Shown: one piece after another, positions 15,449 to 17,860 of the stretch
How positions within the stretch are numbered: position 1 is the first letter of the stretch
Layout of the letters: each line of letters starts with the position of its first letter
Source of the DNA: a virus
Lineage: Duplodnaviria > Heunggongvirae > Uroviricota > Caudoviricetes
DNA: 64,000 nucleotides
Reading direction: 5' to 3' (one strand)
IMG/VR virus record: IMGVR_UViG_2925897562_000001
Program-made: the position numbers and the translations under genes
The notes under the pieces: model-generated
Database searches by the model: none
Told to the model about the DNA's origin: nothing
The model's input: only the letters and a program-made list of their open reading frames with translations

Positions 15449-17860
15449 ATGAATGACGTTACAGTTGTTACATCGGTTACTTACCCATCACCCGAGTCGT
15501 TGGCTCTGGTGGCTGATGTGCAATACCACGAACCATATCTGTCAGCCGCTCTAAACCGAAAATTCAGGGGAATTGTTGACCCAGGATTTTATGCTGGTTT
15601 CTTGCCTAAGCCTGGCGGTGGAATGAACCTGTTAATCACCTCAGTGGATGGAGATAAAACCGCTGGCGCGGCGTCAGTGGATATTGGTGAATTCTACCAG
15701 GTAACTATTCAGCATCGTAAGGATATCTCTCTTGCACTTAACGCAGGCAAGAAATATGCAATTGTGCTGAAGGGAAGATACCTTCTTGGAGAAGATACCT
15801 ATCAGGTGAATACCGCGTCACATATTCATGCAGCTGAATTTGTTGCCAGAACCTATACCGATTCATATCAGTTAGGTGATGGGGAACTGCTGGTTTGTAC
15901 GGTGAATATCCCTGCTGGCGTATCTACCATTACTCAAGAGATGATTGATACATCCGAGCGTATCAACCGCACGATCGGCATTGATATTTCAGACTCTGTA
16001 ACCAGTACCAGAAGTGATGTTGCTGCGAGTTCGCTGGCAGTTAAAAAAGCCTACGATCTGGCGAAAAGCAAGTATACGGCGCAGGATGCAAGCACAACGC
16101 AAAAGGGATTAGTTCAGCTCAGTAGTGCCACTAACAGTACGTCTGAAGTGCTGGCCGCCACACCGAAAGCTGTCAAGGCTGCATATGACCTGGCTAACGG
16201 GAAGTATACAGCCCAGGATGCAACCACGACACAAAAAGGGATAGTTCAGCTCAGTAGCGACACCAACAGCACTTCTGAAACATTAGCTGCAACTCCAAAA
16301 GCGGTTAAAGCTGCATACGATCTAGCAGCCGGAAAGGCACCATCCAGTCATACACATCCCTGGAATCAGATCACTGGTGTGCCAACAGCTTCATTGACAG
16401 CGAAAGGCATCACTCAGCTCAGTAGTGCCACTAACAGTACGTCTGAAGTGCTGGCCGCCACACCGAAAGCTGTCAAGGCTGCATATGACCTGGCTAACGG
16501 GAAGTATACAGCCCAGGATGCAACCACGACACAAAAAGGGATAGTTCAGCTCAGTAGCGACACCAACAGCACTTCTGAAACATTAGCTGCAACTCCAAAA
16601 GCGGTTAAAGCTGCATACGATCTAGCAGCCGGAAAGGCACCATCCAGTCATACACATCCCTGGAATCAGATCACTGGTGTGCCAACAGCTTCATTGACAG
16701 CGAAAGGCATCACTCAGCTCAGTAGTGCCACTAACAGTACGTCTGAAGTGCTGGCCGCCACACCGAAAGCTGTCAAGGCTGCATATGACCTGGCTAACGG
16801 GAAGTATACAGCCCAGGATGCAACCACGGCTCAAAAAGGGATAGTCCAACTCAGCAGTGCTACCAATAGCACTTCTGAAACATTAGCTGCAACTCCAAAA
16901 GCGGTTAAAGCTGCATACGATCTAGCAGCCGGAAAGGCACCATCCAGTCATACACATCCCTGGAATCAGATCACTGGTGTGCCAACAGCTTCATTGACAG
17001 CGAAAGGCATCACTCAGCTCAGTAGTGCCACTAACAGTACGTCTGAAGTGCTGGCCGCCACACCGAAAGCTGTCAAGGCTGCATATGACCTGGCTAACGG
17101 GAAGTATACAGCCCAGGATGCAACCACGGCTCAAAAAGGGATAGTCCAACTCAGCAGTGCTACCAATAGCACGTCCGAAGTGCTGGCCGCCACACCGAAA
17201 GCTGTCAAGGCTGCATATGATTTGGCTAATGGAAAGCAAGCGGCAGACGCTACGCTCACTGCTCTAGCGGCACTAGCTACAGCAGCAGATAAACTCCCTT
17301 ATTTCACAGGTGTTGATCGTGCCGCGTTAACTGCATTGACAAGTGTTGGACGCGCCATTCTTGGTAAGACCAGTATTCAGAGCGTTCTTGATTACCTTGG
17401 TTTAGGAGAAGGCTCGGCGCTGCCCGTTGGTGTACCTGTTCCGTGGCCCTCAGCCACACCTCCAACGGGGTGGCTGAAATGCAATGGTGCAGCATTTTCT
17501 TCTGAAATGTACCCCAGGCTGGCAAAGGCTTATCCGACCAATAAATTACCGGATTTACGCGGTGAGTTTATCCGTGGTTGGGATGATGGGCGAGGTGTGG
17601 ATGCGGGAAGGGTCATCTTAAGCATACAGGGGTGGTTAACAGGAAGTCATTATCATAATATTCGGTCATGGGACGCGTGGGATAACACGGTATTGGTGCC
17701 AAATGACAGAGGGGGGGATAGTCTGTTGTCGACAGATAACGCCGTCCAAGAAGGAGCGATTAATGGTAAATTTACCAGTCAATACAGAACGGAGTTATCT
17801 GGGGGGAATGAAACCCGCCCACGTAACATTGCCTTCAATTATATTGTGAGAGCAGCATAA
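15449..17860 (+). CDS. S: tail fibre protein S (constant part Sc fused to the currently expressed variable cassette Sv0), 803 aa
   Basis: ATG at 15449 with AAGGA RBS; ~100-aa tandem repeats; C-terminal tail-collar motif LPDLRGEFIRGWDDGRG; HxH tip motif; crossover site inside the ORF. Confidence 0.9.
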   Translation: MNDVTVVTSVTYPSPESLALVADVQYHEPYLSAALNRKFRGIVDPGFYAGFLPKPGGGMNLLITSVDGDKTAGAASVDIGEFYQVTIQHRKDISLALNAGKKYAIVLKGRYLLGEDTYQVNTASHIHAAEFVARTYTDSYQLGDGELLVCTVNIPAGVSTITQEMIDTSERINRTIGIDISDSVTSTRSDVAASSLAVKKAYDLAKSKYTAQDASTTQKGLVQLSSATNSTSEVLAATPKAVKAAYDLANGKYTAQDATTTQKGIVQLSSDTNSTSETLAATPKAVKAAYDLAAGKAPSSHTHPWNQITGVPTASLTAKGITQLSSATNSTSEVLAATPKAVKAAYDLANGKYTAQDATTTQKGIVQLSSDTNSTSETLAATPKAVKAAYDLAAGKAPSSHTHPWNQITGVPTASLTAKGITQLSSATNSTSEVLAATPKAVKAAYDLANGKYTAQDATTAQKGIVQLSSATNSTSETLAATPKAVKAAYDLAAGKAPSSHTHPWNQITGVPTASLTAKGITQLSSATNSTSEVLAATPKAVKAAYDLANGKYTAQDATTAQKGIVQLSSATNSTSEVLAATPKAVKAAYDLANGKQAADATLTALAALATAADKLPYFTGVDRAALTALTSVGRAILGKTSIQSVLDYLGLGEGSALPVGVPVPWPSATPPTGWLKCNGAAFSSEMYPRLAKAYPTNKLPDLRGEFIRGWDDGRGVDAGRVILSIQGWLTGSHYHNIRSWDAWDNTVLVPNDRGGDSLLSTDNAVQEGAINGKFTSQYRTELSGGNETRPRNIAFNYIVRAA
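16080..17230 (+). repeat. in-frame tandem repeat, 300-bp period, about 3.7 copies, inside S
   Basis: Sequence lines 16141, 16441, 16741 and 17041 are identical; copies 1 and 2 identical over 300 bp, copies 3 and 4 differ at a few positions. Confidence 0.9.
17385..17410 (+). other. cixL-like invertase crossover site inside S (TTCTTGATTACC-TT-GGTTTAGGAGAA)
   Basis: 26-bp imperfect dyad with 2-bp core, similar to hix/gix/cix sites (hixL TTCTTGAAAACC-AA-GGTTTTTGATAA); at the Sc/Sv junction. Confidence 0.7.
17399..17860 (+). other. expressed variable cassette Sv0 (tail-collar domain plus tip, 153 aa)
   Basis: Begins immediately after the crossover dinucleotide; homologous to the 8 silent cassettes. 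Confidence 0.8.

What the first reader, a model, noticed from the sequence alone, without database searches (positions are those of the whole stretch)
16080..17230. Near-identical 300-bp in-frame tandem repeats in the S tail-fibre shaft
Four consecutive 300-bp units (the first two 100 percent identical over 300 bp) encode a repeated ~100-aa module (QKGIVQLSS-TNSTSE-LAATPKAVKAAYDLA-GK ... SSHTHPWNQITGVPTASLTAKGITQLSS). Such perfect repeats are hot spots for RecA-mediated copy-number change, which would alter fibre length, and they are hard for short-read assemblers, so the true copy number may differ from what is shown.
Basis: seen in the sequence. Interest (0 to 1): 0.4.

Follow-up and report, generated by a model that had tools for sequence, protein, structure and literature searches.

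The report
Copy-variable repeats in P1-like tail-fibre gene
The perfect 300-bp repeats are real and lie in the shaft-coding part of the tail-fibre gene of a P1/p15B-type phage-plasmid; related plasmids carry 2 to 14 copies of the same module, so this is an ordinary, already recognised kind of repeat instability.

Summary
Window 16114-17179 is a 300-nt tandem array (3.6 copies). Units 1 and 2 are 100% identical, unit 3 differs at 9 positions, and the fourth is partial. The window is plasmid CP022733.1, a P1/p15B-type phage-plasmid. The array lies in the constant part (Sc) of tail-fibre gene S (15449-17860).

Each 300-nt unit is a 132-nt plus a 168-nt sub-unit. Each sub-unit encodes one Pfam Phage_fiber_2 motif; there are 9 motifs in all.

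Related plasmids carry 2 to 14 such units, always in frame. Flanks with 0 mismatches in 1,124 nt carry arrays of 4, 8, 11 or 14 units. Units are identical within a plasmid but differ between plasmids. This points to recurrent recent expansion, contraction and homogenisation.

The window's architecture recurs in at least 13 other complete plasmids, so it is probably not an assembly error. Short-read contigs do often break inside the array.

RecA dependence and an effect on fibre length were not tested. GenBank P1 records already annotate repeated elements, including a 132-nt "a1", in Sc. This is a known kind of feature and of low interest.

The parts
15003..15437 (+). R gene (P1 tail-fibre structure/assembly protein), directly upstream of S
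   Evidence: ORF. It is 96-97% identical to P1/P7 R. The identical gene on the source plasmid CP022733.1 (L095) carries Pfam PF26881 Phage_P1_tail_fiber_R.
15449..17860 (+). S tail-fibre gene in its current inversion state, 803 aa
   Evidence: ORF and translation. Pfam finds 9 Phage_fiber_2 stretches plus a Collar domain. The exact protein is encoded on CP022733.1 at the same coordinates.
15449..17393 (+). Constant part of S (Sc), upstream of the inversion crossover region
   Evidence: All inverted repeats shared with the silent cassettes begin at 17394. P1 annotation of Sc and cixR serves as the reference.
15995..16126 (+). Unit M0: degenerate first 132-nt unit (SSLAVKKAYDLAKSK-YTAQDASTTQKGLVQLSS)
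   Evidence: It differs from s1 at 47 of 132 nt. It overlaps the positions of P1 repeated elements a0/a1 (coordinate offset 14422).
16127..16258 (+). Unit s1 (132 nt, 44 aa; V-type motif plus short linker)
16259..16426 (+). Unit L1 (168 nt, 56 aa; T-type motif plus long linker APSSHTHPWNQITGVPTASLTAKGITQLSS)
16427..16558 (+). Unit s1, second copy, identical to the first
16559..16726 (+). Unit L1, second copy, identical to the first
16727..16858 (+). Unit s2 (differs from s1 at 6 nt in its last 30 nt)
16859..17026 (+). Unit L2: a chimera whose first 9-14 nt match e1 and whose remainder matches L1
   Evidence: Alignments. The switch lies within the shared pentamer AGCAC.
17027..17158 (+). Unit s2, second copy
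17159..17236 (+). Terminal motif e1 (78 nt, V-type) that closes the array
16114..17179 (+). The 300-nt-period array as called by Tandem Repeats Finder (3.6 copies, 98% matches)
17394..17629 (+). Crossover-proximal start of the variable part (Sv), repeated in inverted orientation at eight silent cassettes
   Evidence: Inverted repeats I1-I8.
17860..18471 (+). Tail-fibre assembly (U/Tfa-like) gene
   Evidence: Pfam Caudo_TAP.
18477..22328 (-). Eight silent alternative Sv cassettes (some truncated) of a Min-like multiple-inversion region
   Evidence: ORFs. Inverted copies end at 18982, 19421, 19908, 20380, 20894, 21408, 21886 and 22328. Collar domains were found in the two cassettes scanned.
22383..22964 (+). 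Serine recombinase (DNA invertase) gene
   Evidence: Pfam Resolvase N-terminal domain (2e-51) plus HTH_7.

Best explanation
The feature is a recently amplified, higher-order tandem array of Phage_fiber_2 tail-fibre repeat modules. It lies in the constant (Sc) part of gene S of a P1/p15B-type phage-plasmid (CP022733.1).

The old building blocks are two motif-plus-linker units of 132 nt ("s") and 168 nt ("L"). Their protein sequence is conserved, but their codons have diverged. A 300-nt s+L pair has been duplicated in frame very recently. The window now reads M0-s1-L1-s1-L1-s2-L2-s2-e1.

Long perfect direct repeats misalign during replication or recombination. Unequal exchange, slipped-strand template switching and gene conversion therefore add, remove and homogenise whole units, always in multiples of 3 nt, so the protein stays intact.

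Inferred consequence: the trimeric fibre shaft, between the baseplate-attachment N-terminus and the invertase-selected receptor-binding tip, becomes longer or shorter by about 44, 56 or 100 residues per event. Receptor specificity itself is set separately by the adjacent multi-cassette inversion system.
For: Shown:
- Repeat anatomy and perfect identity.
- Nine Phage_fiber_2 matches, 540 bits against a cut-off of 22.
- P1/P7 identity of R and the S N-terminus. The window equals CP022733.1.
- s versus L motif cores differ at 23 of 78 nt, with 16 synonymous and only 3 non-synonymous codon differences. Paired 300-nt units differ at 0 nt. The motifs are therefore old and the amplification is recent.
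- Relatives carry 2-14 units in 24 architectures, all in frame.
- PLSDB record spans for the same query differ by 132, 600 and 732 nt.
- Unit-allele maps show identical units within a plasmid and different alleles between plasmids. Examples are s5L1 x1 versus x3, and s3L1s4e1 versus an 8-unit and a 14-unit form.
- Loci with 0 mismatches in 1,124 nt upstream and 0-1 mismatch in 165 nt downstream carry arrays of 510, 1110, 1578 and 2010 nt.
- L2 is an e1/L1 chimera, the footprint of a misaligned exchange.

Inferred: the effect on shaft length, and which enzymatic route operates.
Against: - No read-level or experimental data, so rates, RecA dependence and within-culture heterogeneity are unknown.
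- Some short arrays come from short-read contigs and could be collapsed by the assembler. However, two complete plasmids also have 3 and 4 units.
- The protein census is the top 120 clusters by score and is therefore biased towards long arrays.
- The structure of the module is unknown. The AlphaFold2 monomer model is unreliable (pLDDT 43), so "longer shaft" is not demonstrated.
Confidence: 0.85

Rival explanations
1. Assembly artefact: the copy number shown in this record is wrong (collapsed or inflated), and the perfect identity of units 1 and 2 reflects consensus polishing rather than biology.
For: - Of 20 p15B-type IMG/VR contigs, 7 end inside the array.
- Two deposited Punavirus phage genomes have 1-nt indels between units, and their S genes are annotated as fragments. 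Errors do occur in this region.
Against: - The same 1962-nt stretch aligns collinearly in one piece to 13 PLSDB plasmids from humans, chickens, pigs, a cat and Salmonella.
- 31 of the 120 best-scoring protein clusters share the sLsLsLs architecture.
- The ORF is intact.
- CP088422.1 has 0 flank mismatches and the same array length.
Confidence: 0.05
2. Adaptive length tuning (contingency-like locus): rapid gain and loss of units is selected because fibre length must match the depth of host O-antigen or capsule. This would be a second axis of host-range variation alongside tip switching by the invertase.
For: - Wide variation (2-14 units) on identical flanks.
- All variants stay in frame, and the motif protein sequence is under purifying selection.
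- The array sits in the same gene as a 9-cassette tip-switching system.
Against: - No phenotype, rate or host-association data.
- The same pattern is expected from neutral repeat instability filtered only for frame and foldability.
- Three architectures make up 85 of the 114 full-length clusters in the (score-biased) sample. That could equally mean mild stabilising selection or shared ancestry.
Confidence: 0.12
3. Recombination linker: the conserved motif DNA mainly serves as shared homology for swapping tail-fibre segments between unrelated phages. The tandem array would be a by-product of such exchanges.
For: - Homology between this plasmid and P1/P7-type S genes stops at window 16137, 11 nt into the first s unit.
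- Chromosomal prophage tail-fibre genes match only the array, at 81-84% identity (H109-H119).
- Downstream flanks fall into distinct types: about 111 of 165 mismatches in L004, L006, L011 and L012.
Against: - This explains mosaic borders, but not perfect 300-nt duplications or unit alleles that are identical within a plasmid.
- It is compatible with the best explanation rather than an alternative to it.
Confidence: 0.3
4. Fixed length under selection: copy number is stable, and sequence identity between units is maintained only by gene conversion.
For: Many plasmids share the 8- or 9-unit forms. WIN and CP088422.1 have equal length but differ in one s-L pair, which is conversion-like.
Against: Arrays of 2 to 14 units occur, including on identical flanks.
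Confidence: 0.03

Closest known systems
Repeated elements a0/a1/b1/b2 in the constant part of bacteriophage P1 gene S, and the p15B homologue (GenBank M81956, NC_005856; Sandmeier, Iida and Arber 1992, J Bacteriol 174:3936)
   Same: - Same gene, same position in Sc and same upstream gene R.
- The P1 "a1" element is 132 nt, the length of the s unit here. Using the alignment offset, it maps to window 16073-16204.
- From my own memory of the 1992 abstract (not verifiable here, the paper is not held): P1 and p15B were described as having undergone [quoted passage not shown].
   Different: - P1 itself has only one a-type unit, followed by two 222-nt b elements. This plasmid has no b elements and has 8 s/L/e units arranged as 300-nt higher-order repeats.
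- The population range of 2-14 units was not found in any held paper.
Pfam PF03406 Phage_fiber_2 (phage tail fibre repeat) as in lambda Stf, P2 H and Mu S
   Same: There are 9 matches far above the gathering score. Mu S (PDB 5yvq/9ki1 sequence) matches S residues 194-253.
   Different: In most members the repeats are diverged at the DNA level. Here, whole pairs of repeats are identical at the nucleotide level. The repeat structure remains poorly characterised: "little is known" (PMC3368898), and lambda Stf residues 102-393 are modelled as a proximal coiled-coil domain (PMC12617516).
p15B Min multiple DNA inversion system (Sandmeier et al. 1991, NAR 19:5831, cited in PMC5786510)
   Same: A serine invertase plus many inverted Sv cassettes sits directly downstream of the array.
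   Different: That system changes the receptor-binding tip by site-specific recombination. The array changes by homology- or slippage-driven events and affects only the shaft. This window has 8 silent cassettes plus the expressed one, whereas p15B offers six alternatives (my own recollection).
T4 gene 37 duplications and deletions that change fibre length or host range (Beckendorf 1973; Tetart et al. 1996; my own knowledge, not checked with tools)
   Same: In-frame tandem duplication of a tail-fibre segment by unequal exchange, tolerated by a modular trimeric fibre.
   Different: Different phage and different fold. In T4 the duplicated segment is in the distal adhesin region, and its phenotypic effect was shown experimentally. 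Here no phenotype is known.

Membership tests
Pfam PF03406 Phage_fiber_2 repeat | Match to the family HMM above the curated gathering score | tested here: met
   540.7 bits against a cut-off of 22, E = 1.1e-166, 9 stretches.
P1/p15B-type tail fibre protein gpS (Punavirus) | N-terminal (baseplate-proximal) region homologous to P1 gpS | tested here: met
   15003-16137 is 95-97% identical to P1, P7, SJ46 and RCS47. The 200-aa N-terminus is 95-100% identical in 80 IMG/VR loci.
P1/p15B-type tail fibre protein gpS (Punavirus) | Operon context: baseplate genes, then R, S, and a U/Tfa assembly gene | tested here: met
   (Gp6-like baseplate protein, Phage_P1_Gp16, Phage_P1_tail_fiber_R, S, Caudo_TAP).
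P1/p15B-type tail fibre protein gpS (Punavirus) | Constant N-terminal part joined to alternative C-terminal parts at an invertase crossover site | tested here: met
   - Eight inverted copies of 17394-~17620, plus a serine recombinase gene.
- The near-identical plasmid CP088422.1 has the same Sc joined to a different C-terminus (678 versus 803 aa).
P1 Sc "repeated element a" (132 nt) | 132-nt unit at the annotated a0/a1 position of P1 Sc | tested here: met
   - M81956 a1 is at 1651-1782 (132 nt). Alignment offset 14422 places it at window 16073-16204.
- Tandem Repeats Finder finds a 132-nt period starting at 16070.
- Sequence alignment to P1 stops at 16137, so only the first half of a1 is directly aligned.
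p15B Min-type multiple inversion system | Several crossover sites in both orientations and a Pin/Min/Cin-family serine invertase | tested here: met
   Inversion activity itself cannot be tested with these tools.
Contingency (hypermutable repeat) locus | High-frequency, reversible repeat-number change within a clonal population, with a selectable phenotype | not testable with these tools
   Only between-isolate variation is available. There are no reads, rates or phenotypes.
RecA-dependent unequal crossing-over | Dependence of expansion/contraction on RecA and on long perfect homology | not testable with these tools
   The 415-nt and 305-nt perfect runs would allow it. The L2 junction lies in only 5 nt of identity. 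Own knowledge: deletion between tandem repeats of this size can also be RecA-independent (Lovett and co-workers; Bi and Liu).

The most novel reading that the evidence does not exclude
The array could be a selected length-variation device. Under this reading, frequent in-frame gain and loss of 44-, 56- or 100-residue shaft modules tunes fibre reach to the thickness of the host surface layer (O-antigen or capsule). It would work together with the nine-cassette invertase switch that changes tip specificity. The alternation of two codon-diverged motif types would set the size and rate of the steps.
Probability: 0.12. Interest if true: 0.5.

Novelty: already known. Interest (0 to 1): 0.22.

Why it matters
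**Practical.** The S gene of P1/p15B-type phage-plasmids is a predictable trouble spot.
- These elements are present in 643 of 5,426 complete E. coli genomes, and 144 of them carry most of this array-bearing stretch.
- Short-read contigs break in the array, and some deposited phage genomes carry frameshifted S genes there.
- Copy number should therefore not be trusted without long reads. S length should not be used as a lineage marker.

**Biological.** The comparison documents fast, in-frame concerted evolution of a fibre-shaft module on otherwise identical backgrounds. This gives a ready-made natural series of 4-, 8-, 11- and 14-unit alleles for testing whether fibre length affects adsorption. 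That question is relevant to engineering P1-based delivery vectors. None of this changes current understanding of how tail-fibre genes evolve.

Tried and rejected
- **AlphaFold2 monomer of S residues 195-427.** Mean pLDDT was 43 and pTM 0.25. This is too poor for a fold search, so none was run. Only the tentative strand-strand-helix pattern per motif was noted.
- **PDB sequence search.** It found only tip/collar homologues (T4 gp12 and gp37) and the Mu S sequence. I could not tell whether the Mu repeat region is resolved.
- **Primary papers.** Attempts to read Sandmeier 1992 (PMC206102), Sandmeier 1991 (PMC329034) and Lobocka 2004 (PMC523184) failed because none is held. p15B record X62121 is not in the collections. 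The claim that the p15B repeats were described in 1992 therefore rests on the P1 GenBank annotation and on my memory.
- **Literature searches.** Searches for copy-number variation of this array found nothing specific.
- **P1 b elements.** Counting them by BLAST was inconclusive, because b2 is too diverged from b1 to be detected at the threshold used.
- **Spurious hits.** Pfam hits to ARM_TT21_2nd and MCR_D were dismissed as artefacts of the Ala-rich repeat, with no stretch passing on its own. The minus-strand ORF 16991-17239 was dismissed as a by-product of the repeat.
- **Second protein search.** I considered a second whole-database search to get an unbiased copy-number distribution. I did not run it, because three independent data sets already showed the variation.
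Full report
**1. The observation**

Tandem Repeats Finder reports an array at 16114-17179 with period 300, 3.6 copies, 98% matches and no indels. It also reports a nested 132-nt period at 16070-16317.

The in-register copies are as follows:
- 16114-16413 and 16414-16713 are 100% identical.
- 16714-17013 has 9 mismatches, confined to unit positions 115-153.
- 17014-17313 is 71% identical. It follows unit 3 for 159 nt and then departs.

Exact-match runs at offset 300 are 415 nt and 305 nt long. A 64-kb sequence of this composition is expected to contain a longest chance repeat of about 15.5 nt. The repeat is therefore real and far beyond chance. "Four units" should read three full units plus a partial one.

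**2. What the gene is**

- The array lies in an ORF whose biological start is ATG 15449 (MNDVTVV...) and whose stop is at 17860, giving 803 aa.
- Pfam finds nine Phage_fiber_2 (PF03406) repeats (540 bits, cut-off 22) and a C-terminal Collar domain. The next gene is a Caudo_TAP tail-fibre assembly protein.
- The stretch 15003-16137 (gene R and the first 689 nt of S) is 95-97% identical to P1, P7, SJ46 and RCS47. There the genes are annotated R and S, with [quoted passage not shown].
- The exact 803-aa protein is encoded at identical coordinates on CP022733.1, a 96,658-bp E. coli plasmid. The window is therefore the first 64 kb of that record.
- Downstream, eight inverted copies of the 200-236 nt that start at 17394 head eight silent C-terminal cassettes (18477-22328, minus strand). 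A serine recombinase gene follows at 22383-22964. This is the p15B Min-type arrangement, not the two-cassette Cin arrangement of P1 (PMC5786510 describes a similar region as 99% identical to min of p15B).
- The array therefore lies wholly in the constant part Sc, between the baseplate-proximal N-terminus and the switchable receptor-binding tip.

**3. Fine anatomy**

In motif phase the array reads as follows:

| Unit | Coordinates | Note |
|---|---|---|
| M0 | 15995-16126 | degenerate |
| s1 | 16127-16258 | |
| L1 | 16259-16426 | |
| s1 | 16427-16558 | |
| L1 | 16559-16726 | |
| s2 | 16727-16858 | |
| L2 | 16859-17026 | |
| s2 | 17027-17158 | |
| e1 | 17159-17236 | terminal |

- An "s" unit is 132 nt (44 aa): a motif ATNSTSEVLAATPKAVKAAYDLANGK plus the short linker YTAQDATT[TA]QKGIVQLSS.
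- An "L" unit is 168 nt (56 aa): a motif [DA]TNSTSETLAATPKAVKAAYDLAAGK plus the long linker APSSHTHPWNQITGVPTASLTAKGITQLSS.
- The two motif types encode almost the same peptide but differ at 23 of 78 nt, with 16 synonymous and 3 non-synonymous codon differences. The s/L pair is therefore old and under purifying selection at the protein level.
- The 300-nt s+L pairs, by contrast, are identical or nearly so and are therefore recent.
- L2 is a chimera. Its first 9 nt carry the diagnostic bases of e1, and from nt 15 onward it is L1. The switch lies in the shared pentamer AGCAC.
- The simplest history is a parent s-L1-s-e1 array, which exists in relatives (see section 4). A misaligned exchange between e1 and L1 then created s2-L2-s2-e1. 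An s1-L1 duplication followed, through the 102 nt that s1 and s2 share. This history is inference.

**4.

(a) *PLSDB.* 515 plasmids match 15449-17410. Of these, 13 align collinearly over all 1962 nt in one piece. They come from human blood, sputum and urine, chicken, pig, cat and Salmonella Pomona. Others cover the same query in 1830, 1362-1364 or 1230 nt of record, that is 132, 600 or 732 nt less.

(b) *Protein search.* The 120 best-scoring protein clusters range from 648 to 1136 aa. The 114 that start with the S N-terminus carry 7-14 strict motifs in 24 architectures:
- sLsLsLsL: 41 clusters.
- sLsLsLs (the window's type): 31 clusters.
- sLsLsLsLs: 13 clusters.
- Up to sLsLsLsLsLsLs, plus irregular forms such as sLLsLLsLLsL and sLLLLLLsL.

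This list is ranked by score and therefore favours long arrays.

(c) *IMG/VR loci.* 80 loci were chosen by the N-terminal 200 aa only. They include 20 with this array type, carrying 2-6 units where the contig passes through.

(d) *Unit-allele maps at the DNA level.* Units are identical within a plasmid but differ between plasmids:
- s5-L1-e5 (NZ_OY754380.1) versus (s5-L1)x3-e5 (NZ_CP135665.1, NZ_CP134391.1).
- s3-L1-s4-e1 (NZ_CP123256.1), versus s3-L1-s3-L1-s4-L2-s4-e1 (NZ_CP126930.1), versus a 14-unit form (JBRKHF010000004.1).
- s11-L1-(s20-L1)x4 (NZ_LR882054.1).

The window and NZ_CP126930.1 share one architecture. They differ by the same single nucleotide in all four s units, which is a signature of concerted evolution. 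CP088422.1 has the same length as the window but has s1-L1 where the window has s2-L2.

(e) *Flank comparison.* Loci with 0 mismatches in 1,124 nt upstream and 0-1 mismatch in 165 nt downstream carry arrays of 510, 1110, 1578 and 2010 nt, that is 4, 8, 11 and 14 units.

Copy number therefore changes much faster than the flanks accumulate substitutions. It has changed repeatedly and independently, and it always stays in frame.

**5. Assembly question**

- Of the 20 p15B-type IMG/VR contigs, 7 end inside the array and 7 more end within about 250 nt after it, at the inversion crossover. Only 6 read through, all with 6 units or fewer.
- Two deposited Punavirus phage genomes (ON470615.2, ON470617.2) have 11 and at least 14 motif units. 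Their unit spacings are off by 1-3 nt (89 instead of 90 nt; one of 129 instead of 132 nt), and their S genes are annotated as fragments.
- The region is therefore error-prone. For this window, however, the intact ORF and the recurrence of the same architecture in many independent complete plasmids argue that the copy number shown is genuine. No reads were available to prove it.

**6. Mechanism**

*Shown:*
- Long perfect direct repeats.
- In-frame unit-wise length polymorphism.
- Homogeneity of units within a plasmid.
- A chimeric junction.

*Inferred:* misalignment of the repeats adds, deletes and homogenises units. Possible routes are unequal homologous exchange between sister or co-resident copies, slipped-strand template switching at the fork, and gene conversion.

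RecA involvement is plausible for the 300-415-nt perfect runs but was not tested. The L2 junction, in 5 nt of identity, fits a short-homology event better. From my own knowledge, deletion between tandem repeats of a few hundred nucleotides in E. coli can be largely RecA-independent.

*Also inferred:* each unit lengthens the trimeric shaft.
- The AlphaFold2 monomer model was unreliable (pLDDT 43). It suggested only a strand-strand-helix pattern per motif.
- The held literature says little is known about this repeat (PMC3368898). It models lambda Stf residues 102-393, the proximal part of the side fibre, as a proximal coiled-coil domain (PMC12617516).

**7. Comparison with what is known**

- GenBank records for P1 (M81956, NC_005856) already annotate "repeated element a0" (36 nt), "a1" (132 nt) and "b1"/"b2" (222 nt) within Sc.
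- a1 has the length of the s unit. By alignment offset it maps to window 16073-16204.
- The associated paper is Sandmeier, Iida and Arber 1992. Its existence is confirmed through the reference lists, but its text is not held. As I recall its abstract, it describes sequence amplifications producing mosaics of partially related repeated elements in P1 and p15B.
- The kind of feature is therefore known, and the exact protein is already in NCBI. The extent of the natural copy-number series (2-14 units) and the unit-allele evidence for recurrent events were not found in any held paper. They are an incremental addition.

**8. Verdict**

This is a real feature that was correctly identified. It is mechanistically ordinary and of a kind already described for this gene family.

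The RecA attribution and the fibre-length effect remain untested. The worry about this record's own copy number is not supported. Interest is low (0.22).

Noticed in passing
window 17394-22964: A Min/p15B-type multiple-inversion region. Eight inverted copies of the first 200-236 nt of the variable part of S head eight silent C-terminal cassettes, some of them truncated. A 193-aa serine recombinase gene follows. With the expressed one, that makes nine alternative fibre tips, more than the six I recall for p15B.
   Followed up: partly
window 1-64000: The window corresponds to nt 1-64000 of E. coli plasmid CP022733.1 (96,658 bp, assembly GCA_003856995.1). S lies at the same coordinates in the record.
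   Followed up: yes
L002, L003, L005-L007, L009, L014 (IMG/VR contigs): Seven contigs end within about 250 nt after the array, exactly at the invertase crossover region. This probably reflects mixed inversion states in the sequenced cultures breaking the assembly graph.
   Followed up: partly
L051 and L067 versus L083 (P1 NC_005856): P1-type Sc genes also vary by one 74-aa step. The post-repeat anchor lies at residue 324 in L051 and 472 in L067, against 398 in P1 and most relatives. This suggests loss or gain of one 222-nt b element. L067 has two b1-like copies by BLAST.
   Followed up: partly
L096 (ON470615.2) and L097 (ON470617.2): Two deposited Punavirus phage genomes carry long s/L arrays (11 and at least 14 motif units). 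Their unit spacings are off by 1-3 nt, and their S genes are annotated as several "Fragment" CDSs. These are most likely sequencing or polishing errors in the repeats.
   Followed up: partly
window 16137: Nucleotide homology to P1/P7-type S genes stops 11 nt into the first s unit. The border between the P1-type and p15B-type halves of Sc therefore lies within a repeat motif.
   Followed up: partly
E. coli genome hits H109-H119, H131, H134 (chromosomes): Chromosomal prophage tail-fibre genes match only the array portion (about window 16050-17235) at 81-84% identity, over about 210-290 nt (684 nt in H109) of record. The motif DNA is therefore shared with other prophage families.
   Followed up: no
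L086 (NZ_CP019188.1, Salmonella Pomona plasmid): The plasmid table lists the tail-fibre CDS only from locus position 2003, although the S reading frame translates uninterrupted for 816 aa from the usual start. This may be an annotation or start-site inconsistency caused by the repeats.
   Followed up: no
window 16991-17239 minus strand; Pfam hits PF25060 and PF02505 on S: An 82-aa antisense ORF lies inside the array. S also gives weak Pfam hits to ARM_TT21_2nd and MCR_D. All appear to be by-products of the Ala-rich repeat rather than real features.
   Followed up: partly
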